Source: an uncultured Actinomycetes bacterium
GTDB lineage: Bacteria > Actinomycetota > Acidimicrobiia > IMCC26256 > PALSA-555
Direction: 5' to 3'
DNA: 64,000 nt
Assembly (NCBI GenBank): GCA_963731625.1
Contig: CAVSWH010000001.1
Location: 1,608,570 to 1,672,569 of the forward strand
Shown here: one piece after another, positions 6,411 through 63,167 of the stretch
Layout: each line of letters opens with the position of its first letter
How positions within the stretch are numbered: the stretch's first letter is position 1
Position numbers and translations under genes: made by a program
The notes under the pieces: model-generated
The model's input: the letters and a program-made list of their open reading frames with translations, nothing else
Told to the model about the DNA's origin: nothing
The model's database searches: none

Positions 6411-8254
6411 TAGGCGCTGCGCTCTTCACCGTCGTCGACGATCTCGGCGTCGGCGACCTCGTCGTCCGACGGCGGCGGTGCGTCCCCGCCCGGGGCGGAG
6501 GACGCCGCGTTCTGCTGGGCCTGGGCCGTCTGGTAGAGCCGCTGCGCGAACTCCTGGCTGGCGGCGAGGAGTGCCTCGTGCTTCTGGCGCACGGCGTCGA
6601 TGTCGGTGCCGGCGAGCGCGGTCTTCAGGTCACCGAGCGCGGCCTCGATCTTCGTGCGGTCGTCCGCCGAGACCTTGTCCGCCTGCTCCTTCAGGAGCTT
6701 CTCGGTCTGGAAGACGAGCGAGTCCGCGTTGTTGCGGGTCTCGGCCTCCTCGCGCTTGCGGCGGTCCTCCTCGGCGTGCGCCTCGGCCTCCTTCACCATG
6801 CGGTCGATCTCGTCCTTGCCGAGCGCGGTGCCGCCGGTGATCGTCATCGCCTGCTCCTTGCCCGTCCCGAGGTCCTTCGCGCTCACGTGCACGATGCCGT
6901 TCGCGTCGATGTCGAACGTGACCTCGATCTGGGGCACGCCGCGGGGCGCGGGCGGGAGCCCGACCAGCTGGAACGTGCCGAGCATCTTGTTGCGGTACGC
7001 CATGTCGCTCTCGCCCTGGAGCACCTTGATCTCGACACTGGGCTGGTTGTCGTCCGCGGTGGTGAACACCTCGGAGCGCTTCGTCGGGATCGTCGTGTTC
7101 CGCTCGATGAGCCGGGTCATGATCTGACCCTTCGTCTCGATGCCGAGCGACAGCGGCGTGACGTCGAGGAGCAGGACGTCCTTCACGTCGCCCTTCAGCA
7201 CGCCGGCCTGGATGGCGGCGCCGACCGCGACGGCCTCGTCGGGGTTGACGCCCTTGTCGCCCTCCTTGCCGGTGAGGTCGCGCACCAGGTCCTGCACGGC
7301 GGGCATGCGGGTGGACCCGCCGACGAGGATGACCCGGTCGATGTCGCTGCTCTTCAGGCTCGCGTCACGGATCGCCTGCTCGAAGGGCCCCTTGCAGGAC
7401 TCGAGCAGATCCGCGGTGAGCTCCTGGAACTTGGCCCGCGAGAGGCTCAGCTCCAGGTGCAGCGGCCCGTCCTGGGTCGCCGTGATGAACGGCAGGTTGA
7501 TCGACGTCTCCTGCAGCGAGGAGAGCTCGATCTTGGCCTTCTCGGCGGCTTCCTTCAGACGCTGCGTCGCCATCTTGTCGGCCGCCAGGTCGACCCCGTG
7601 GGCACCCTTGAACTCGGTGACCATCCAGTCGATGACGCGCTGGTCCCAGTCGTCGCCGCCGAGGTGCGTGTTCCCGGCCGTCGCCTTGACCTCGAAGACG
7701 CCCTCGCCGAGGTCGAGCACGGACACGTCGAAGGTGCCCCCGCCGAGGTCGAACACGAGGATGGTGAGGTCGTGCTCCTTGTCGAGGCCGTACGCGAGCG
7801 CGGCGGCCGTCGGCTCGTTGATGATCCGGAGCACGTCGAGGCCTGCGATCTCGCCGGCCTCCTTCGTGGCCTGGCGCTGGGCGTCGTCGAAGTAGGCCGG
7901 GGCGGTGATCACGGCCTGGGTGACCGTGTCACCGAGGTACGCCTCCGCGTCCCGCTTCAGCTTCTGGAGGATGCGGGCCGAGATCTCCTGGGCCGAATAG
8001 TGCTTCCCGTCGATGTCGATGTTCCACGACGTGCCCATCTCGCGCTTCACGGAGCGGATGGTGCGGTCGGGGTTGGTGATCGCCTGGCGCTTCGCCACCT
8101 CGCCGACGAGGACCTCGCCGGTCTTGGAGAACGCCACGACCGACGGGGTCGTGCGGGACCCCTCGGCGTTGGGGATGACGGTCGGCTCGCCCGCCTCGAG
8201 GATCGAGACGACCGAGTTCGTGGTGCCGAGGTCGATGCCGACGGCCTTGGGCAT
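6410..8254 (-). CDS. dnaK: Chaperone DnaK
   Basis: [28 protein letters not shown] motifs; RBS GGAGG upstream. Confidence 0.99.
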
Positions 8255-8946: not shown

Positions 8947-10201
8947 CTACTCGACGGCGTGGGTTCGCGGGGGGCGTGGGTCGGGGAGAGCGAGGCGGGC
9001 GAGGTTGGTCGCGGCGTTGCGGTCACGGTCCACGACGATCCCGCATGCCGGGCAGACGAACGTCGGGGCTGATCCAAGGTGCTGGTGGTAGTGCCCGCAG
9101 GCTGAGCAGGTTTTGGAGGACCCGTACCAGCGGTCGGCGACGACGAGTCGGTTGGCATACCAGTCGGCTTTGTAGGTGAGCTGGCGGCGCAGTTCCCCGA
9201 AGCCCTGATCCGCGACCCGGCCGGCGAGGCGATGGTTGCGCAGCATCCCGGCGACGTGGAGGTCCTCGATCACGAGGGTCTGGTAGCGGGCGACCAGCCC
9301 GCTGGTCAGCTCGTGGAGCTGATGCTCGCGCCGGTGCGCGACTGTGGCGTGCAGACGTGTCAGGCGCGTCGTGGCGCGGCGGCGACCCGACGAGGCGGGC
9401 TTGGTTCTCGCCCAGCCTCGTTGGGCCCGCCGCAACCGGCGCTGGGCCCCATGGAGCGCGTTCACCCCCTCCCACTGCTCGAGAAGCCGACCGCGGGCAT
9501 CCGCGACGCTGGCGAGGCGCCGCACACCCAGGTCCACCCCGACCGGTCCCGGTGCTCGGCCGCGGCGGCGATGCTCCGGGTGGAACGGCGCGGCCCGTCC
9601 GGCGACGCTCAGCCACCAGCGGCCCCGCCGATACGACACCGTCGTGGAGAGCACCTCGAAGCGACCCGCCGCCAGGAGCCGGCGCAGCCGCCGCGTGTCG
9701 TCATGGACCCGCACCCAGCCCAGACACGACACCCGCAGCGCCCGACCCTCGACGCGCAGCTGTTCAGGATGGCGCAACCGGAACCGCGGCGTCGTGCGCT
9801 TGCGGGCCTTAAACACCGGGAACCCCACCCGGGCGCCCCACCGGCGCCCGGCCCGCGACGCCGCCCAGTTCGCCAACCCCGCCGCCAGATCCACCGCGGC
9901 GCACTCGAACACCGCGCTCGGGATCTCCTTTCCCCACGCCAGCTCCCGGCGCCGCCGATAGGCGCTCCGAATCGAGCGCGTACTTCGACCATGCCACCTG
10001 GGTTGTTGGCGCCCCCAACGTGGCGCGCTCCGCGGCGCGGGCATCCAAGCCCGCCTTCACCTCACCCAACAACGCGTTGAAGACGAACCGCGACGCCCCC
10101 GCCCAACGGACCAGCCGCGCCTCCAACACCGGGGACACAACAACAGCGAAACGAAACCCCACCGGCCGCCAACCATTACGACCACCGACCCCAGACACCA
10201 C
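8947..10201 (-). CDS. tnpB: RNA-guided endonuclease TnpB (IS607/IS1535-like), split by one +1 indel near 9972-9977
   Basis: N-part in ORF 9809..10201 (GFRFAV...RWAGASRFVFNALL); remainder in ORF 8947..10044 with RuvC GVDLG, VIEDL, DRDRNAATNL and Zn finger CSACG/CPACG. Confidence 0.9.
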
Positions 10202-13988: not shown

Positions 13989-14062
13989 GCGGGTGTAGTT
14001 CAGCGGCAGAACATCAGCTTCCCAAGCTGAGAACGCGGGTTCGATTCCCGTCACCCGCTCCA
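13989..14062 (+). tRNA. tRNA-Gly (anticodon CCC), CCA encoded
   Basis: GCGGGTG/CACCCGC acceptor, TCAGC-TTCCCAA-GCTGA anticodon arm, GGTTCGATTCC T-arm, ends TCCA. Confidence 0.98.
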
Positions 14063-14251
14063 TTGCGCCGATCGGCCTGCAGCGGCGCGCCCTTCGTCTG
14101 GCGCGTCGCGCGATCGACGCGTTCCCCGGCTGCGACGACGTTGATCACATCGACTGGACTCTCGGGGCTGAAGATCGCAGGATCGCTTGCTCGGGTCAGG
14201 TCGCCTCTGCGGGGGGCACATACGCTGGACCGAGCTTCCGTGGAGGAACGC

Positions 14252-15109
14252 GTGTTGCGGCTTGCAGCGATCGTCAGCACCCTGGGTCTCGTGGGAGGCG
14301 TTGGATGGCTCCTGGCGGACGCGATGCCCGCCGGAGCGGTCACCCAGTCGTTCACGAGCGCCGGTTGTACGACCTGGACCGTGCCGGCGGGTGTGACGAG
14401 CGTCCAGGTCCAGGCGGTCGGCGCAGCCGGCGGCGCGGGGGCCACCACCGGCGGTACGGGCGACGGTGTGTCGGCAACCGTCTCCGGTTTGACGCCCGGC
14501 CAACTGCTCGACGTGTGCGTCGACTCCGGCGGTGGTCCGTTCAGCGGCTCTAGTGGCAGCGGTGGCGGGGCGTCCGGCGTCAGTGTCGGGTCCACCTTCA
14601 GCGCTCCCATCCTCGTCGCCGGGGCCGGCGGCGGCGGCAGCGGCCCCACCTCGGCTCCCCCTGGCCCAGGTGGGTCCGCCGGGCTCCCGTCCGGCGCTCC
14701 CGGGACGGGTAGCGGTGGTGGAGTTCCAGGTGGGGGCGGGAACAACATGACGATGACTGGCGGGGCGGCCGGACCCATTGGTGGCGGGCCGGGCTTGATG
14801 TTCGACGCAAGTGGGCCCGGTCACGGAGGGGCGGGCGGCAACGGCGGTGGTGGAGGCGGAGCGGGCTACTTCGGAGGAGGCGGCGGCGGCGCGGGACCTG
14901 AAGGGGCTGGAGGAGGAGGCGGCGGCTCAGACTTCTGCACCAACACGGCGACCGTCACGGGATGCAACGTCGCGTCTGGCGCGGGTACAGGTACGAGTGC
15001 CGGCGCCGCCGTCGGGGATGCGCAGGTCGTCCTCACGTACACGGTCACGAGTCCGAGCCCACCAATGCCGGGAGTCGCCGTCGTGGCGTCGCCCCGCTTT
15101 ACCGGTTAA
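14252..15109 (+). CDS. Secreted glycine-rich protein ending in PRFTG-stop
   Basis: RBS GGAGG then GTG 14252; signal peptide ...ADAMPAGA; TTWTVPAGVTSVQVQAVGAAGG glycine-rich domain; Pro-rich linker; C-terminus VVASPRFTG. Confidence 0.85.
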   Translation: MLRLAAIVSTLGLVGGVGWLLADAMPAGAVTQSFTSAGCTTWTVPAGVTSVQVQAVGAAGGAGATTGGTGDGVSATVSGLTPGQLLDVCVDSGGGPFSGSSGSGGGASGVSVGSTFSAPILVAGAGGGGSGPTSAPPGPGGSAGLPSGAPGTGSGGGVPGGGGNNMTMTGGAAGPIGGGPGLMFDASGPGHGGAGGNGGGGGGAGYFGGGGGGAGPEGAGGGGGGSDFCTNTATVTGCNVASGAGTGTSAGAAVGDAQVVLTYTVTSPSPPMPGVAVVASPRFTG

Positions 15110-15198: not shown

Positions 15199-15248
15199 TT
15201 CCCAGCTGAGAACGCGGGTTCGATTCCCGTCACCTGCCCCATTGCGCC
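15199..15248 (+). repeat. Degenerate duplicate of tRNA-Gly 3' half (attR-like)
   Basis: TTCCCAGCTGAGAACGCGGGTTCGATTCCCGTCACCTGCCCCATTGCGCC vs 14019-14069: one A deleted, two substitutions; includes 7 nt of tRNA trailer. Confidence 0.92.

Positions 15249-59682: not shown

Positions 59683-59692
<10 letters not shown>
58568..59692 (+). CDS. DUF3566 protein with long Ala/Ser/Pro/Arg-rich N-terminal extension
   Basis: KVDLWSVTKLSLCF...FYNIFAELFGGVEITV; canonical position after gyrA. Confidence 0.88.
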
Positions 59693-59756
<64 letters not shown>

Positions 59757-60217
59757 CGACGAGGACTTCACCGTTGGCGCCGGGTTGGGTTCACCGTTGC
59801 GGCTCCGGCGGGGACATCTGGCGCGACATCATCGCCACCGAGCCTTGAGGACCCAGTAGCCGACTGCCGGTTCTACCGGAGGCCTTGGGCCGAAGCTCGT
59901 TACGGGTCGGTTCGTTGCCGGGTGGCGCGACGAAGCCGCCTGAAGGTCTCGCGAGCCCAACCTGCGCGCGGGCCCGTTGTGCGAGTACTGCCCCGCACTT
60001 TGTCGGTGCGAGGTTGGCGCCACCTTCATGGCGGAGCGCAACCAGTAGTCACCAACCGCGTCGTGGCCCGGGCGCAGGAATGATGAATCGTGATCGGCTA
60101 GCCGGGGTCGGAACGGAGCGCTGATCATGTGCGTGGCACGCGTAGAGCTCCGATCGGTCGGTGTTAGCGTTCGGGCGTTCTTGGCCTGCGGGCCAGGCGA
60201 AGGCGGAGGGAGCCCGG

Positions 60218-61738
60218 GTGCGGTCGGTGAGGGGTCCGGTCGCGGCTGGGCTGGTCGGGCTGGTGGTGGTGGCGGGGTCGCTGGTCGCGATCGGGGTGGC
60301 CCCCGCGGGGGCAACATCCCTGGTGCACAACGAGGCGGAGTTCCGGGCCGCGTGGACCAATAACGCCGAGACCGAGATCGACCTGGCCAACGACATCACC
60401 TTCACCACGCCCTGTGCCAACCCCAGCGGCTCCACCGGGGCGGTCCGGGCCACCACGACCCCGTTGACCGTGAACGGCAACGGGCACACGCTCACGCTCT
60501 GCACCAACGCTGGGAACGGCGTGCTCGAACAGGACAGCTCGGGTGCGCTCACGTTCCAGAACGTCACCGTCACCGGTGGCACCGCGACGACCTCCCCCGG
60601 CATCGGGGGTGCGATCTTCACTGGCGGTGTGGTGACGGTGACGAACTCGACGTTCACCAACAACACTGCCGACGGCATCGGGGGCGGTGCGATCTTCGCT
60701 GACGGTGCAGCGGTGACGGTGACGAACTCGACGTTCACCGGCAACACTGCCCCCGGCGACGCCGGGGGTGCGGTCTTCGCTTTTGGTGTGGTGACGGTGA
60801 CGAACTCGACGTTCACCAACAACACCGCCGCCGGCAGCGGTGCGATCTTCGACGAGGGTGGTGCCGTGACGGTGACGAACTCGACGTTCACCGGCAACAC
60901 CGCCCCCGGCGGCACCGGGGGCGCGATCGTGACTGGCGGTGTGGTGACGGTGACGAACTCGACGTTCGCCAACAACACTGCATCCAGCGGCGGGGGTGCG
61001 ATCGGCACCGGTAATGCGGTCATGGTGACGAACTCGACGTTCACCGGCAACGCCGCATCCAGCGGCGACGGGGGTGCGATCACTGGCGCAGCGGTGACGG
61101 TGACGAACTCGACGTTCACCGGCAACGCCGCATCCAGCGGCGACGGGGGTGCGATCGGCACCGCCTTTCCGGTCACGGTGACGAACTCGACGTTCACCAA
61201 CAACACCGCGAGCACCGGGGGTGCGGTCTTCGCCAGCAGTGCGCTGAAGGTCGCATATTCGACGTTGACCGGGAACGTCGCCCCAACCGGAAGCGCAGTG
61301 GCGTCAGATACTTCGATCACGTTGTTTGGCTCGGTGTTCGTGAAGCCCGCGGGGACGGGGCCCCTGTGCGCTGGAACGAGCAACTCGTTGGGGTACAACT
61401 ACGCGAACGAGACCCTGAACACCTGCAACCTGATCGCGACGGGGGATAGCAGCCTCGACGCGAACGACCCGCTGCTCGGTGCGCTGGCCAGCAACGGTGG
61501 GCCCACCCAGACCCAGCTGCCCCAAGACGGGCCCAGCCCACTGATCGACGCGATCCCCAACGCGCACTGCGGGGACGGCAACACCCTCGCCGGGTTCACG
61601 ATCACGACCGACCAGCGCGGCCTGCCCCGCCCCGACACGGCCAGCCCCAACTGCGACATCGGCGCCGTGGAGGTGCAGCCACCTGCGGCGGCGACCACCA
61701 CGACAACGCCTGGCCTCACCGCCGCGTTCACCGGGTAG
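60218..61738 (+). CDS. Secreted beta-helix (Pmp/adhesin-like) protein with choice-of-anchor-Q-type C-domain, ending AAFTG-stop
   Basis: RBS GGAGG then GTG 60218; signal ...GVAPAGA; eight GA(I/V)...VTVTNSTFTxN repeats; DPLLGALASNGGPTQT...DQRGLPRP...CDIGAVEV; tail TTTTPGLTAAFTG. Confidence 0.88.
   Translation: MRSVRGPVAAGLVGLVVVAGSLVAIGVAPAGATSLVHNEAEFRAAWTNNAETEIDLANDITFTTPCANPSGSTGAVRATTTPLTVNGNGHTLTLCTNAGNGVLEQDSSGALTFQNVTVTGGTATTSPGIGGAIFTGGVVTVTNSTFTNNTADGIGGGAIFADGAAVTVTNSTFTGNTAPGDAGGAVFAFGVVTVTNSTFTNNTAAGSGAIFDEGGAVTVTNSTFTGNTAPGGTGGAIVTGGVVTVTNSTFANNTASSGGGAIGTGNAVMVTNSTFTGNAASSGDGGAITGAAVTVTNSTFTGNAASSGDGGAIGTAFPVTVTNSTFTNNTASTGGAVFASSALKVAYSTLTGNVAPTGSAVASDTSITLFGSVFVKPAGTGPLCAGTSNSLGYNYANETLNTCNLIATGDSSLDANDPLLGALASNGGPTQTQLPQDGPSPLIDAIPNAHCGDGNTLAGFTITTDQRGLPRPDTASPNCDIGAVEVQPPAAATTTTTPGLTAAFTG
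60608..61215 (+). repeat. Eight intragenic ~70-80 bp repeats (core GTGACGAACTCGACGTTC)
   Basis: Near-identical DNA cores encode VTNSTF in each beta-helix coil. Confidence 0.9.
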
Positions 61739-61743
61739 CGGCG

Positions 61744-61759
61744 CCGTTCGGGCGAACGG
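61744..61759 (+). terminator. Hairpin after beta-helix gene
   Basis: CCGTTCG-gg-CGAACGG, 5 nt after stop; no U-tract. Confidence 0.45.
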
Positions 61760-61764
61760 GGCCG

Positions 61765-61795
61765 TGTAGAAATCGGTCGCTGAGGGTGTAGATCC
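61765..61795 (+). repeat. 31-bp module copy 1
   Basis: TGTAGAAATCGGTCGCTGAGGGTGTAGATCC. Confidence 0.9.
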
Positions 61796-61873
61796 ATGCC
61801 CCGACCATGTGGCTCCGCCTGCGCCGGCAAGGGCGTAGCGTCCTGCCGTTCGGTCGAGGCGGAGGAGACGCCG

Positions 61874-62947
61874 GTGCGGTTGCGCATCGCTAGTTTCGGT
61901 CTTGGTGCGGTCGCGACCGCGCTGTTCGGCGTCGTGGCGTTGGCAGGTTCGGGCCCAGCGGGGGCGGCGTCGACGACGCTGTACTCCTCCCTCACCGGGT
62001 TTACCGGGTTTGTGCCGAGCGCGGCGACGGTGCCTGCGGGGATCTGTTTCGTGACGATCGCCGCTGCGGGTGGGCAGGGAGGGACCACGAGTGTCGCCGG
62101 TGGCGCCGGCGCGTCGGTCGCGGCGCGTGTCGCTGCCGCGCCGGGGAGCGTCTTGGCCGTGCTCGTCGCTGGCGCGGGCGGCCTTGTAGATGGCGGCACC
62201 GGTGGCGGGGGCGGGGCTGGGGGCGGGGAAGGCGAGGGGGGTGGTGGGGCATCGGCTGCGAGCTCGAATGGTGTGCCGCTGGTCGTTGCCGGGGGCGGCG
62301 GTGGCGCGAGCAACGGCGTAGGCGGCGCGGGTGGACCCATTGCGGGGAACGCGAGTCCGGGCGGCGGCGGTGATCCCGGCGGCGGCGGGACCGGCGCCGG
62401 GGTGAGCGGCGCGGGTGGGTTCCGCGGCGGCACGGGTGGGACGGTGACCACGACCGGGGCCGCGACCGGGGCCGTCGGCGGCAGCGGTGGCAACGGTGAC
62501 GGCAACGCAGGTGGTGGCGGCGGAGCGGGGACCTTCACGTCGGCGCCTGGAGCGAACGGCGGCGCGGGCGGCGCGGGATCGGGCGCGGGCGGAACCGGCA
62601 GTGCCGGCAGCGGAAAGGGCGGTGCGGGCGCCGCGCCCGGCGGCACCGGCGGGAGCTCCAGCGATCAAGGCGGCGGCGGTGGTGGCGGCGCCCCCGGCGT
62701 GGGCGGTGGTGGTGGTGGTGTCGATGGTGGCGGGGGCGCAGGCTACGCGGGCGGCGGCGGAGGGGGCGGCGCAGGTTCGGGAGGAGGCGGGGGATCGTCG
62801 TTCGCCGCGCCCGGCGCGACCGGGATCCAGAACCTCGGACCCAACACCGGAGACGGCAGCGTCGCGATCACCTACGACCCGAGCACCGACGCCTGCCCGG
62901 TTGTCGCGCCGGCCGCGGTCGCCCCGACGGCTGCGTTCACCGGGTAG
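61874..62947 (+). CDS. Secreted glycine-rich protein ending AAFTG-stop
   Basis: RBS GGAGG then GTG 61874; signal ...GSGPAGA; ATVPAGICFVTIAAAGGQGG glycine-rich domain; GDGSVAITY; tail PVVAPAAVAPTAAFTG. Confidence 0.87.
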   Translation: MRLRIASFGLGAVATALFGVVALAGSGPAGAASTTLYSSLTGFTGFVPSAATVPAGICFVTIAAAGGQGGTTSVAGGAGASVAARVAAAPGSVLAVLVAGAGGLVDGGTGGGGGAGGGEGEGGGGASAASSNGVPLVVAGGGGGASNGVGGAGGPIAGNASPGGGGDPGGGGTGAGVSGAGGFRGGTGGTVTTTGAATGAVGGSGGNGDGNAGGGGGAGTFTSAPGANGGAGGAGSGAGGTGSAGSGKGGAGAAPGGTGGSSSDQGGGGGGGAPGVGGGGGGVDGGGGAGYAGGGGGGGAGSGGGGGSSFAAPGATGIQNLGPNTGDGSVAITYDPSTDACPVVAPAAVAPTAAFTG

Positions 62948-62950
62948 CGG

Positions 62951-62964
62951 CGCGGTTCACCGCG
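62951..62964 (+). terminator. Hairpin after glycine-rich gene
   Basis: CGCGG-ttca-CCGCG, 3 nt after stop; no U-tract. Confidence 0.4.
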
Positions 62965-62975
62965 AGCGGGACCCT

Positions 62976-63006
62976 TGTAGAAATCGGCCGCGGAGCGTGT
63001 AGATCC
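62976..63006 (+). repeat. 31-bp module copy 2
   Basis: TGTAGAAATCGGCCGCGGAGCGTGTAGATCC, 28/31 identical to copy 1. Confidence 0.9.
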
Positions 63007-63072
63007 GTGGTCCACGCATCTGCACGTCACCTGTGCCAGTAGGGCTGTCCGCAACGGTGAAGTCCTCACGAC

Positions 63073-63103
63073 GAGAGAAATCGGTCGCTTAGGGTGTAGA
63101 TCC
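63073..63103 (+). repeat. 31-bp module copy 3
   Basis: GAGAGAAATCGGTCGCTTAGGGTGTAGATCC, 27/31 identical to copy 1. Confidence 0.88.
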
Positions 63104-63167
63104 GTGGCTCACCCATGCGGTTCCACCCGCGCTTGCCAGTGCTGCCGGCAACGATGAAGCCTTCACG

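What the first reader, a model, noticed from the sequence alone, without database searches (positions are those of the whole stretch)
60218..62947. Candidate novel C-terminal sorting signal: secreted surface proteins ending in a naked x-x-F-T-G-stop
Seen: three accessory exported proteins end identically: VVASPRFTG* (14252-15109), PGLTAAFTG* (60218-61738) and APTAAFTG* (61874-62947). Each has a Sec-type signal peptide, a passenger domain (two glycine-rich, one unrelated beta-helix), a Pro/Ala/Thr/Val linker, then FTG with no hydrophobic helix or basic tail. The tRNA-Gly copy uses different codons (TTT ACC GGT TAA vs TTC ACC GGG TAG), implying protein-level selection. Known: LPXTG/LAXTG sortase signals need a following TM plus basic tail, and choice-of-anchor-Q domains are followed in other taxa by whatever anchor that lineage uses (LPXTG, PEP-CTERM, T9SS). 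Here FTG sits exactly in that slot. Inference: FTG-COOH is a lineage-specific anchoring or transpeptidation signal (T-G scissile bond as in sortase) processed by an enzyme encoded elsewhere. I do not recognise it as a named CTERM family.
Basis: partly seen in the sequence, partly recalled or inferred. Interest (0 to 1): 0.88.

Follow-up and report, generated by a model that had tools for sequence, protein, structure and literature searches.

The report
Naked C-terminal FTG surface-protein signal
Three secreted proteins in this actinobacterial genome end in the same bare Phe-Thr-Gly tail; the tail is conserved on many related proteins, and in other genomes tail-bearing genes sit directly in front of a cell-wall cross-linking enzyme, which points to an undescribed way of fastening proteins to the bacterial wall.

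Summary
The only three FTG-stop sites in all six frames of the window end three Sec-signal proteins (Poisson P about 4e-5).

The tail is conserved well beyond this genome:
- 78 of the 120 best homologues of the beta-helix protein end in xFTG-COOH. The consensus is P-x-V-V-h-[TV]-P-x-F-T-G.
- Codons and stop codons vary synonymously, so selection acts on the protein.
- No hidden transmembrane segment lies downstream.
- After the choice-of-anchor-Q domain the slot is lineage-specific. Acidimicrobiia-type MAGs have FTG (rarely YTG or LTG), while other taxa have LPXTG, LAXTG or PEP-CTERM with a helix.

New here is a link to a distinct L,D-transpeptidase (YkuD) subfamily. In 15 of 18 loci, spread over at least six genomic contexts, the gene immediately upstream on the same strand ends in [FY]TG-COOH. 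Two unrelated passenger types show this.

My best reading is that the tail is the recognition signal, and probably the acyl donor with Gly as leaving group, for an LDT acting as a sortase analogue. That mechanism is inferred, not shown.

Caveats:
- The two adjacent window genes share their tail through a DNA duplication.
- The glycine-rich family elsewhere lacks the tail.
- No such LDT lies in the window.

I found no description of this in the searched literature or in NCBIfam.

The parts
60218..61738 (+). Secreted beta-helix (Pectate_lyase_5/PMP-repeat) protein with a choice-of-anchor-Q domain, a P/A/T linker and the FTG-COOH tail (506 aa)
   Evidence: ORF; Pfam and NCBIfam; AlphaFold2 mean pLDDT 88 as a beta-helix; 78 of the 120 best homologues end in FTG
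60218..60313 (+). Predicted Sec signal peptide of protein 1 (about aa 1-32, VRSVRGPVAAGLVGLVVVAGSLVAIGVAPAGA|TS)
   Evidence: Sequence; hydrophobicity; residues 1-27 have pLDDT below 50. The cleavage site is inferred.
61466..61678 (+). choice-of-anchor-Q domain (aa 417-487) ending in the invariant CDIGAVEV
   Evidence: NF041518, 53.4 bits against a cut-off of 25; invariant columns
61679..61735 (+). Flexible linker plus tail QPPAAATTTTTPGLTAAFTG; the F-T-G codons are 61727-61735 and the TAG stop is 61736-61738
   Evidence: pLDDT about 62 with no secondary structure
61874..62947 (+). Secreted glycine-rich protein (357 aa) ending ...APTAAFTG; the F-T-G codons are 62936-62944 and the TAG stop is 62945-62947
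14252..15109 (+). Secreted glycine-rich protein (285 aa) ending ...VVASPRFTG; the F-T-G codons are 15098-15106 (TTT ACC GGT) and the TAA stop is 15107-15109
   Evidence: family search
61718..61749 (+). 32-nt repeat copy 1, spanning the tail codons, the stop and 11 nt beyond
   Evidence: family D16, 91% to copy 2
62927..62958 (+). 32-nt repeat copy 2, spanning the tail codons, the stop and 11 nt beyond
   Evidence: family D16
61768..61834 (+). 67-nt intergenic repeat, copy 1 of 3; the others are at 62979-63045 and 63076-63142
   Evidence: absent from 103 other loci
59683..59757 (+). tRNA-Ile(GAT) marking the slot that holds the FTG genes. Relatives L055 and L056 have the same slot with a single FTG gene.
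13989..14062 (+). tRNA-Gly(CCC). Its 3' 48 nt (14022-14069) are repeated at 15201-15248, bracketing the glycine-rich FTG gene.

Best explanation
The bare tail ...P-x-[F/Y]-T-G-COOH is a lineage-specific C-terminal signal of Acidimicrobiia and some other Actinomycetota. It marks Sec-exported surface proteins for a dedicated, membrane-tethered L,D-transpeptidase (YkuD fold with an N-terminal beta domain). Proposed steps: (1) Sec export and signal-peptide removal (inferred from sequence). (2) The passenger folds, and the Pro/Ala/Thr linker holds the tail out as a flexible peptide (supported by AlphaFold2). (3) The LDT binds the free C-terminus. Its catalytic Cys attacks the Thr carbonyl and the achiral terminal Gly leaves, as D-Ala (or Gly) leaves a peptidoglycan tetrapeptide stem (inferred). 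(4) The acyl-enzyme is resolved by the side-chain amine of a wall stem peptide, fixing the protein covalently to peptidoglycan (inferred). Because the terminal dipeptide itself mimics the enzyme's normal donor end, no membrane-spanning stop-transfer helix or basic tail would be needed. The three window proteins would be substrates of an LDT encoded elsewhere in the genome.
For: Shown: the tail is invariant at F, T and G at the extreme C-terminus of 78 of 120 homologues, with a conserved P at -5 and a hydrophobic run before it. Across 46 ORFs in other genomes it is written with both Phe codons, three Thr codons, all four Gly codons and all three stops. In FTG loci it is the commonest C-terminal tripeptide among 1749 ORFs: 42, against 25 for RRR. 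It replaces LPXTG, LAXTG and PEP-CTERM anchors after the same domain in a lineage-specific way. It occurs on at least six passenger architectures. Nearly all carriers have signal peptides. The tail is flexible in the model. LDT link: YkuD genes lie 5-47 nt downstream of [FY]TG-tailed genes in L014 and L030. The reciprocal searches started from the LDT. They found an [FY]TG-tailed gene immediately upstream in 5 of 7 metagenome loci and in 9 of 10 context look-ups. That is 15 of 18 distinct LDT loci, at least six flanking contexts and two unrelated passengers. One example from a named Acidimicrobiales MAG ends ...TPKFTG (L093). The LDTs keep the catalytic His and Cys, fold like B. subtilis YkuD, and are lipoproteins or N-terminally anchored. 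From established knowledge: LDTs release the C-terminal residue of their donor and can exchange it for Gly or D-amino acids.
Against: No biochemical data exist. Known LDTs use peptidoglycan stems as donors and proteins (Lpp, some outer-membrane proteins) only as acceptors. A protein donor has no precedent that I know of or could find. No YkuD gene lies in the window or within 10 kb of FTG genes in about 30 Acidimicrobiia-type loci, and I could not test whether the window's genome encodes this LDT subfamily. Most LDT-adjacent tails are YTG, not FTG, so treating F and Y as equivalent is an inference; it rests on L093, the beta-helix class and YTG variants in the same slot (L059, L075). Three LDT loci lack a tailed neighbour (L083, L102, L087). 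The pairs are conserved operons and therefore not fully independent observations. Apart from its last residue, the tail does not resemble a stem peptide.
Confidence: 0.5

Rival explanations
1. The tail is a non-covalent docking or maturation motif. The free C-terminal peptide would be bound by the LDT's N-terminal beta domain or another wall-associated receptor, by strand addition. Alternatively, the LDT would act only as an L,D-carboxypeptidase that trims the Gly. Either way the protein is retained or matured without transpeptidation to peptidoglycan.
For: The conservation and the LDT linkage are the same as for the main model. The hydrophobic V-V-h-T-P run before FTG looks like a short strand. 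YkuD-fold enzymes include carboxypeptidases: the weak NCBIfam hits include ElsL, and Foldseek hits include Pgp2.
Against: The catalytic Cys and His are strictly conserved in the linked enzymes, which suggests chemistry on the partner rather than mere binding. An invariant terminal Gly is what a leaving group would look like. In other lineages the tail replaces covalent anchors in the same slot.
Confidence: 0.2
2. The tail is not a sorting signal. It could be a lineage-specific stabilising cap of the Pro-rich linker, for example protection against exoproteases. Or the small tailed proteins could be pseudo-substrate regulators of their neighbouring LDT, with the same ending on other proteins being incidental.
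For: 150 representatives of the glycine-rich family show no such tail. No LDT lies near most FTG genes. The commonest LDT neighbour is a single small protein family.
Against: A cap would not need three invariant residues across at least six architectures, or strict placement at the last three positions. The tail occupies the anchor slot after two different choice-of-anchor-type domains. A second, unrelated passenger (a roughly 670-aa beta-helix) is also LDT-adjacent.
Confidence: 0.15
3. The tail is a degenerate sortase signal (class E/F LAXTG-like), cleaved at T-G by a sortase.
For: It ends in T-G like LPXTG and LAXTG. Homologues in Nitriliruptoraceae and Micromonosporaceae carry LPATG or LADTG with a helix and Arg in the same slot.
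Against: There is no hydrophobic segment or basic tail, and none in any downstream frame. The position that is variable in sortase motifs is invariant F/Y here, and Pro is at -5 rather than -4. No sortase gene was seen beside any tailed gene, whereas an LDT is. From established knowledge: LPXTG with a free carboxylate on Gly is a poor sortase A substrate.
Confidence: 0.05
4. The finding is an artefact: chance, truncated ORFs from assembly errors, or a conserved DNA element (terminator or att site) that happens to encode FTG-stop.
For: Within the window, the two adjacent genes do share their tail, stop and downstream sequence as a DNA repeat.
Against: Poisson P is about 4e-5 in the window. Third positions and stop codons vary synonymously across 46 ORFs from independent assemblies. 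Downstream sequence is not conserved elsewhere. Hundreds of independent gene calls show the same ending.
Confidence: 0.02

Closest known systems
LPXTG/LAXTG cell-wall sorting signals and sortases (classes A-F)
   Same: A short C-terminal motif ending in T-G on Sec-exported surface proteins. It is modular across passengers, occurs several times per genome, and takes the same slot after choice-of-anchor-Q in other Actinomycetota. The proposed end product, Thr carbonyl amide-linked to a wall amine, would be the same.
   Different: There is no spacer, transmembrane helix or Arg tail. F/Y is invariant where sortase motifs have X, and Pro is shifted to -5. The linked enzyme has a YkuD fold, not a sortase fold. 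Only a single Gly would be released.
L,D-transpeptidase-mediated protein attachment (E. coli Lpp by ErfK/YbiS/YcfS; beta-barrel proteins in alpha-proteobacteria)
   Same: A YkuD-family Cys enzyme couples a protein to peptidoglycan. The small abundant-looking protein encoded next to the LDT recalls the Lpp logic. PMC8263019 was retrieved on Lpp-peptidoglycan attachment (title and abstract only).
   Different: In the known cases the protein is the acceptor (Lys or N-terminal amine) and the stem peptide is the donor. Here no conserved amine exists in the tail (position -4 is R/A/T/S/K), so the protein would have to be the donor. The setting is a monoderm actinobacterium. The subfamily falls far below the cut-offs of the named NCBIfam LDT models.
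Tripartite CTERM sorting domains (PEP-CTERM/exosortase, PGF-CTERM/archaeosortase, GlyGly-CTERM/rhombosortase, MYXO-CTERM/myxosortase)
   Same: The tail meets four of the recognition criteria listed in bioRxiv 10.1101/2023.06.07.544157: C-terminal location, several copies per genome, at least three invariant signature residues, and N-terminal signal peptides. PEP-CTERM occupies the same slot in Myxococcota and delta-proteobacterial relatives.
   Different: It lacks the transmembrane helix and the basic cluster. The candidate enzyme is a soluble-domain, membrane-tethered transpeptidase, not a polytopic intramembrane protease.
Peptidoglycan tetrapeptide stem as the natural LDT donor (L-centre residue followed by D-Ala, exchangeable for Gly)
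   Same: An L-residue followed by a terminal residue without an L side chain and with a free carboxylate. The terminal residue is the leaving group.
   Different: The upstream residues (P-x-F/Y-T) do not resemble L-Ala-gamma-D-Glu-diamino acid. This comparison rests on established knowledge and was not tested here.

Membership tests
LPXTG/LAXTG sortase signal | Pentapeptide L-P/A-X-T-G with a variable X | tested here: not met
   The consensus is [TV]-P-x-[F]-T-G. F is invariant at the X position, P is at -5 and L is not conserved (78 tails).
LPXTG/LAXTG sortase signal | Hydrophobic membrane-spanning segment after the motif | tested here: not met
   The stop codon directly follows Gly. No transmembrane-like stretch continues from the stop in any frame at 40 loci; the few hydrophobic hits are the next gene's N-terminus.
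LPXTG/LAXTG sortase signal | Basic (Arg/Lys) C-terminal cluster | tested here: not met
   The proteins end in Gly.
LPXTG/LAXTG sortase signal | Cognate sortase encoded in the genome | not testable with these tools
   Only 64 kb of the genome is available. None of the roughly 40 window genes scanned is a sortase.
Tripartite CTERM sorting domains (criteria in 10.1101/2023.06.07.544157) | At the C-terminus, several per genome, at least 3 invariant signature residues, N-terminal signal peptide | tested here: met
   Three copies in this window, five in tandem in L002 and at least four in MAG OY970233. F, T and G are invariant. Signal peptides are present.
Tripartite CTERM sorting domains (criteria in 10.1101/2023.06.07.544157) | Transmembrane helix followed by an Arg-rich cluster | tested here: not met
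choice-of-anchor-Q domain proteins (NCBIfam NF041518) | HMM match above the curated cut-off, followed by a lineage-dependent anchor | tested here: met
   Protein 1 scores 53.4 bits against 25. Relatives carry FTG, LPATG+TM, LADTG+TM, PEP-CTERM or other tails according to taxon. This applies to protein 1 only, not to the two glycine-rich proteins.
YkuD L,D-transpeptidases (PF03734), for the proposed partner enzyme | Pfam match above the cut-off, conserved catalytic His and Cys in H-G-...-S-x-G-C, YkuD fold | tested here: met
   70.5 and 67.0 bits against 23.4. H, G and C are invariant. PDB profile hit to 1y7m at E 4e-25. Foldseek hit to 4a1i at E 9e-11.
YkuD L,D-transpeptidases (PF03734), for the proposed partner enzyme | Partner enzyme present in this genome or window | tested here: not met
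   A subfamily HMM finds no member in the window's six-frame ORFs. The rest of the genome could not be searched.
Lpp-type LDT substrates (protein as acceptor) | Conserved terminal Lys or free amine used as acceptor | tested here: not met
   The C-terminal residue is Gly. Position -4 is R30/A18/T11/S7/K6 of 78 tails, so no conserved amine exists.

The most novel reading that the evidence does not exclude
A YkuD-family L,D-transpeptidase works as the 'sortase' of Acidimicrobiia and some other Actinomycetota. It would take a protein, not a peptidoglycan stem, as acyl donor. It would recognise the bare ...P-x-[F/Y]-T-G-COOH end, expel the terminal Gly and ligate the Thr carbonyl to the cell wall. 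This would be a protein-sorting system with no membrane-spanning signal and an enzyme family never before implicated as a sorting enzyme. The short bare tails seen in the same slot in Chloroflexota (..[FY]LPLxx[RK]) and Xanthomonadales (..IFxNGFE) would hint that 'naked' C-terminal signals are a wider, overlooked class.
Probability: 0.4. Interest if true: 0.92.

Novelty: new variant of a known kind. Interest (0 to 1): 0.8.

Why it matters
Covalent surface display in monoderm bacteria is thought to depend on sortases and tripartite signals. Acidimicrobiia are abundant in soil, freshwater, marine sediment and wastewater but barely cultivated, and how they hold adhesin-like beta-helix proteins on their surface is unknown. 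A three-residue bare signal read by an L,D-transpeptidase would have four consequences:
- It would add a new enzyme family to protein sorting.
- It would reverse the known donor/acceptor roles of LDTs, which are also carbapenem targets in mycobacteria.
- It would give annotators a simple rule for recognising surface proteins in these lineages.
- It could offer a minimal tag (x-F-T-G) for enzymatic protein ligation.

The hypothesis is directly testable with one purified enzyme and a synthetic peptide.

Tried and rejected
- **Hidden transmembrane anchor by frameshift or readthrough.** Rejected. Stops occur in all frames after the window genes. At 40 other loci, the few hydrophobic stretches downstream of the stop are the next gene's N-terminus.
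- **A DNA-level motif.** Rejected because of synonymous variation, although the two adjacent window genes do share a duplicated 3' end.
- **A conserved neighbouring enzyme around FTG genes in 32 genome loci.** All-vs-all clustering found only synteny (the dnaK-hspR/clpB and gyrA-tRNA-Ile backbones) and antisense ORFs.
- **A sortase or other candidate enzyme in the window.** Pfam annotation of about 40 window genes shows an oriC region: dnaA, dnaN, recF, gyrBA, parAB, yidC, murJ and the dnaK operon.
- **Homology between the two glycine-rich proteins.** BLASTP finds no alignment, because of low complexity, so I do not claim they are paralogues.
- **Glycine-rich family searches.** They gave 17 word-index hits, 2 with FTG, and 150 representatives, 0 with the tail. 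The tail is therefore not a family trait of that passenger.
- **RNA and regulatory scans of the repeats.** The Rfam and promoter/terminator scans found only the two tRNAs. The 67-nt repeat is absent from 103 other loci.
- **Taxon names for the LDT hits.** A cluster look-up returned no names.
- **Literature.** Searches for an FTG motif, for Acidimicrobiia sortases and for LDT-processed sorting signals found nothing relevant.
Full report
**1. The observation.**

| ORF | Length | C-terminal end | Last codons |
|---|---|---|---|
| 60218-61738 (+) | 506 aa | ...TTTTTPGLTAAFTG* | TTC ACC GGG TAG |
| 61874-62947 (+) | 357 aa | ...VAPAAVAPTAAFTG* | TTC ACC GGG TAG |
| 14252-15109 (+) | 285 aa | ...PGVAVVASPRFTG* | TTT ACC GGT TAA |

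The codons were read directly from the sequence. These are the only FTG-stop sites in any of the six frames of the window. Given 345 ORFs of at least 100 aa and the local FTG frequency, 0.06 are expected, so P(>=3) is about 4e-5.

Each protein starts at a GTG behind a GGAGG-like site and has a basic/hydrophobic N-terminus ending in PAGA. Protein 1 is a Pectate_lyase_5/PMP-repeat beta-helix with NCBIfam choice_anch_Q at aa 417-487. The two glycine-rich proteins hit no Pfam or NCBIfam model. BLASTP finds no alignment between them, so I describe them as similar in architecture only.

Nothing hydrophobic or basic follows the motif, and stops occur in all frames just downstream.

**2. A correction within the window.**

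The two adjacent genes share a 32-nt repeat that covers the last codons, the stop and 11 nt beyond (61718-61749 and 62927-62958, 91%). They also share a 67-nt intergenic repeat, present three times at 61768, 62979 and 63076. Their identical AAFTG* ends are therefore one duplication event. The copy next to tRNA-Gly differs in its codons, its stop and its downstream sequence, and is the independent one.

**3. Is the tail conserved elsewhere?**

Yes, strikingly.

- Of the 120 best homologues of protein 1, 78 end in xFTG and one in LTG.
- From 78 non-redundant tails the consensus is P-[AV]-V-[VA]-h-[TV]-P-[RATSK]-F-T-G-COOH. F, T and G are invariant and the preceding linker varies freely in length and sequence.
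- In 79 loci from species-representative genomes, 46 ORFs end in FTG. They use TTC or TTT; ACC, ACG or ACT; GGC, GGG, GGA or GGT; and TGA, TAG or TAA. Selection therefore acts on the protein, not on a DNA element.
- In the 32 loci that hold such genes, FTG is the commonest C-terminal tripeptide among 1749 six-frame ORFs of at least 150 aa: 42, against 25 for RRR.
- No transmembrane segment is hidden behind the stop at 40 loci. The few hydrophobic stretches found are the N-termini of the next gene.
- AlphaFold2 models protein 1 as a confident beta-helix (mean pLDDT 88). The last 20 residues have pLDDT of about 62 and no secondary structure, as expected for an exposed linear motif.

**4. The slot logic holds.**

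What follows the invariant CDIGAVEV end of the choice-of-anchor-Q domain depends on the lineage.

| Lineage | What follows the domain |
|---|---|
| Acidimicrobiia, Acidimicrobiales and 'uncultured Actinomycetes' MAGs | xFTG* (variants PTLTG, PRYTG, PRFVG) |
| Nitriliruptoraceae | LPATG + helix + Arg in one gene; ...EPTYTG* in another |
| Micromonosporaceae | LADTG + helix + Arg |
| Myxococcota, delta-proteobacteria, Spirochaetaceae | PEP-CTERM-like PEP + helix + Arg |
| Thermoleophilia | Nothing |
| Chloroflexota and Xanthomonadales | Other short bare tails (see section 9) |

The FTG tail also ends other architectures:
- beta-helix plus an extra Ig-like module (...DPVxxGxGxxFTG: P0040, P0065, L014, L030, L069);
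- DUF5979 (P0015, P0073);
- a NosD-like helix (P0082);
- SpaA_4 (P0132);
- fn3 (P0134);
- glycine-rich proteins (the window's two, and L023).

The tail is therefore modular and lineage-bound. Consistent with this, none of the best 150 representatives of the glycine-rich family (483 hits in all) ends in [FYL]TG. It is better read as showing that the tail belongs to the lineage's machinery, not to the passenger.

**5. Genomic setting.**

The window is a chromosomal origin region.

- One part holds parB, parA, yidC, dnaA, dnaN, recF, gyrB, gyrA, a DUF3566 gene and tRNA-Ile, followed by the two FTG genes.
- The other part holds purA, clpB, hspR, dnaJ, grpE, dnaK, a TnpB gene, dcd and tRNA-Gly, followed by the third FTG gene.

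Relatives L055 and L056 have a single FTG gene in the same tRNA-Ile slot. Six other relatives carry one to five FTG genes between hspR and clpB. The tRNA-Gly gene's last 48 nt are repeated after the glycine-rich gene. So 'accessory' is a fair description. No candidate processing enzyme lies in the window.

**6. The lead to an enzyme.**

While checking downstream frames I found that in L014 (an Actinomycetes MAG) and L030 (Demequinaceae) the gene starting 39 and 9 nt after the FTG stop encodes a membrane-anchored protein. It carries HGTN...SNGCIRL, and Pfam identifies it as YkuD at 70.5 and 67.0 bits against a cut-off of 23.4.

I then ran the reciprocal test, starting from the enzyme.

- A metagenome scan with these LDTs returned 7 loci. 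In 5 of them the gene immediately upstream on the same strand is a small Sec-signal protein ending ...P-x-YTG*.
- A profile search found 1118 relatives, some named by NCBI as L,D-transpeptidases of Acidimicrobiia, Acidimicrobiales or Actinomycetota.
- I looked up the context of 10 of them. Nine have an immediately upstream gene ending in [FY]TG*.

| LDT hit | Locus | End of the upstream gene |
|---|---|---|
| P0148 | L090-L092 | ...SPVYTG |
| P0246 (Acidimicrobiales) | L093 | ...KQTPKFTG |
| P0195 | L094 | ...TQPPYTG |
| P0155 | L096 | ...DPTYTG |
| P0164 | L097 | ...EPTYTG |
| P0186 | L098 | ...TTPEYTG |
| P0253 | L099 | 673-aa beta-helix ending ...GVGAAFTG |
| P0203 | L100 | ...TTPKYTG |
| P0177 | L103 | two tandem YTG genes |
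| P0193 | L102 | none |

Altogether 15 of 18 distinct LDT loci carry the pair, with gaps of 5-47 nt. The pairs sit in at least six different flanking contexts and involve two unrelated passengers. A tripeptide ending that is otherwise very rare cannot appear there by chance. The caveat is that these are conserved operons, so the number of independent events is smaller than 15.

**7. The enzyme.**

- The subfamily keeps the catalytic His and Cys.
- It matches B. subtilis YkuD best, both by profile (1y7m, E 4e-25) and by fold (4a1i, E 9e-11).
- It has a disordered N-terminal stretch, a beta-rich domain carrying the LPVQPNGTTGW motif, and then the YkuD domain.
- It is membrane-tethered. 76 of 120 members show a lipobox-like motif by a crude pattern, and others have an N-terminal helix.
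- It scores far below the cut-offs of all named NCBIfam LDT models. The small partner protein has no Pfam or NCBIfam family.

**8. Mechanism, comparison and novelty.**

*Shown:*
- a conserved, modular, lineage-specific bare C-terminal signal on exported proteins;
- its genetic linkage to a distinct LDT subfamily.

*Inferred:* the LDT recognises the free C-terminus, its Cys attacks the Thr carbonyl, Gly leaves, and the acyl-enzyme is resolved by a wall amine. The Gly is achiral and so can stand in for the D-Ala or Gly that LDTs normally release or exchange. This last point is established knowledge of LDT chemistry and was not tested here.

This would yield the same product as sortase without needing a stop-transfer helix.

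*Rivals:*
- a non-covalent docking or trimming role;
- a cap or regulator role;
- a degenerate sortase signal;
- an artefact.

The last two are poorly compatible with the data.

*Comparison with known systems:* the tail fails three of the four defining features of sortase signals that I list; the fourth, a cognate sortase, could not be tested. It also fails the helix and Arg-cluster features of the tripartite CTERM signals, while meeting their other criteria as listed in bioRxiv 10.1101/2023.06.07.544157.

Known LDT-protein links, such as Lpp, use the protein as acceptor. Here no conserved amine exists in the tail.

I found no paper or curated model describing the tail or an LDT-read sorting signal. 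The libraries searched are incomplete, so prior description elsewhere cannot be excluded.

I class it as a new variant of a known kind, namely a C-terminal sorting signal with a cognate enzyme. The donor-role LDT mechanism is the more radical reading, which I put at about 0.4.

**9. Limits.**

- I could not search the rest of this genome for the LDT pair or for sortases.
- I could not do genome-wide enrichment or phylogenetic profiling.
- Taxon names for most LDT hits are missing.
- Most LDT-adjacent tails are YTG, while the window's are FTG. L093, the beta-helix class and the YTG variants in the same slot (L059, L075) bridge the two.

Noticed in passing
L005, L020, L025, L039, L052 (ends of the choice-of-anchor-Q ORFs); P0036, P0059: Chloroflexota relatives end in a different short bare tail with no transmembrane helix: hydrophobic-[FY]LP[LVI]xx[RKQE]-COOH (..YLPLVVRE..IYLPVVIK..IFLPLTKR..LWLPLIAIQ..FVYVPIVQR..TFLPLIMR..LFLPFTSRQ). 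It sits in the same slot as FTG and may be a second 'naked' signal.
   Followed up: no
L037, L054, L070: Proteobacterial relatives (Dokdonella/Xanthomonadales-type) end ..[DE]xIFxNGF[ED]x-COOH directly after the choice-of-anchor-Q domain.
   Followed up: no
L012, L026, L028, L042, L046, L058: Chloroflexia relatives carry a conserved C-terminal domain of about 110 aa, rich in Cys (..YPLCVNPYTG...CINPYTG...TCVNRYTGANR..), often in tandem gene arrays.
   Followed up: no
window 14022-14069 and 15201-15248: A 48-nt direct repeat (94%) of the 3' end of tRNA-Gly(CCC) brackets the 1.18-kb segment holding only the glycine-rich FTG gene. It looks like an att-like integration scar, and no integrase is present.
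   Followed up: partly
window 59761-59776 and 63052-63067; 61768-61834, 62979-63045, 63076-63142: A perfect 16-nt inverted repeat brackets the two FTG genes just after tRNA-Ile. A 67-nt intergenic repeat (AGAAATCGG..GTGTAGATCC..) occurs three times. There is no Rfam, promoter or terminator match, and it is absent from 103 other loci. Its function is unknown.
   Followed up: partly
window 8947-10056 (-): A TnpB/Cas12f-like gene (OrfB_IS605 plus the Cas12f1-like TNB domain) is inserted between the dnaK operon and an HdrD-like Fe-S oxidoreductase gene.
   Followed up: no
L002 9782-20280; L009, L011, L044, L049, L074: In several relatives one to five FTG-tailed beta-helix genes sit in tandem between hspR (the end of the dnaK operon) and clpB. 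This is a different insertion hotspot from the window's tRNA slots.
   Followed up: partly
L084-L103 (gene upstream of each LDT): The LDT-adjacent small protein (159-190 aa) forms an unannotated family. It has a signal peptide, two conserved Cys (..G[RQ]xCxV.. and ..VTCE[AP]LP..), then a Pro-rich linker and the [FY]TG tail. It has no Pfam or NCBIfam model. L103 has two tandem copies.
   Followed up: partly
L087 5722-7860: Two LDT paralogues flank a small secreted, Pro/Ala/Thr-rich ORF (6736-7056) that ends ..TTTPQHAG. This may be a variant tail that keeps only the terminal Gly.
   Followed up: no
P0061, P0271, P0275, P0286, P0353, P0378: A small Cys-containing C-terminal module (..CKNGGW..F[KH]NQGQCV..) recurs at the ends of both choice-of-anchor-Q and glycine-rich family proteins. 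It is another interchangeable C-terminal element.
   Followed up: no
window 60520-61290: The beta-helix repeats of protein 1 (period 75-81 nt, nine copies) each contain ..VTNSTFTGN.., so FTG also occurs internally several times. Only the terminal copy has the P-x-FTG-COOH context.
   Followed up: no
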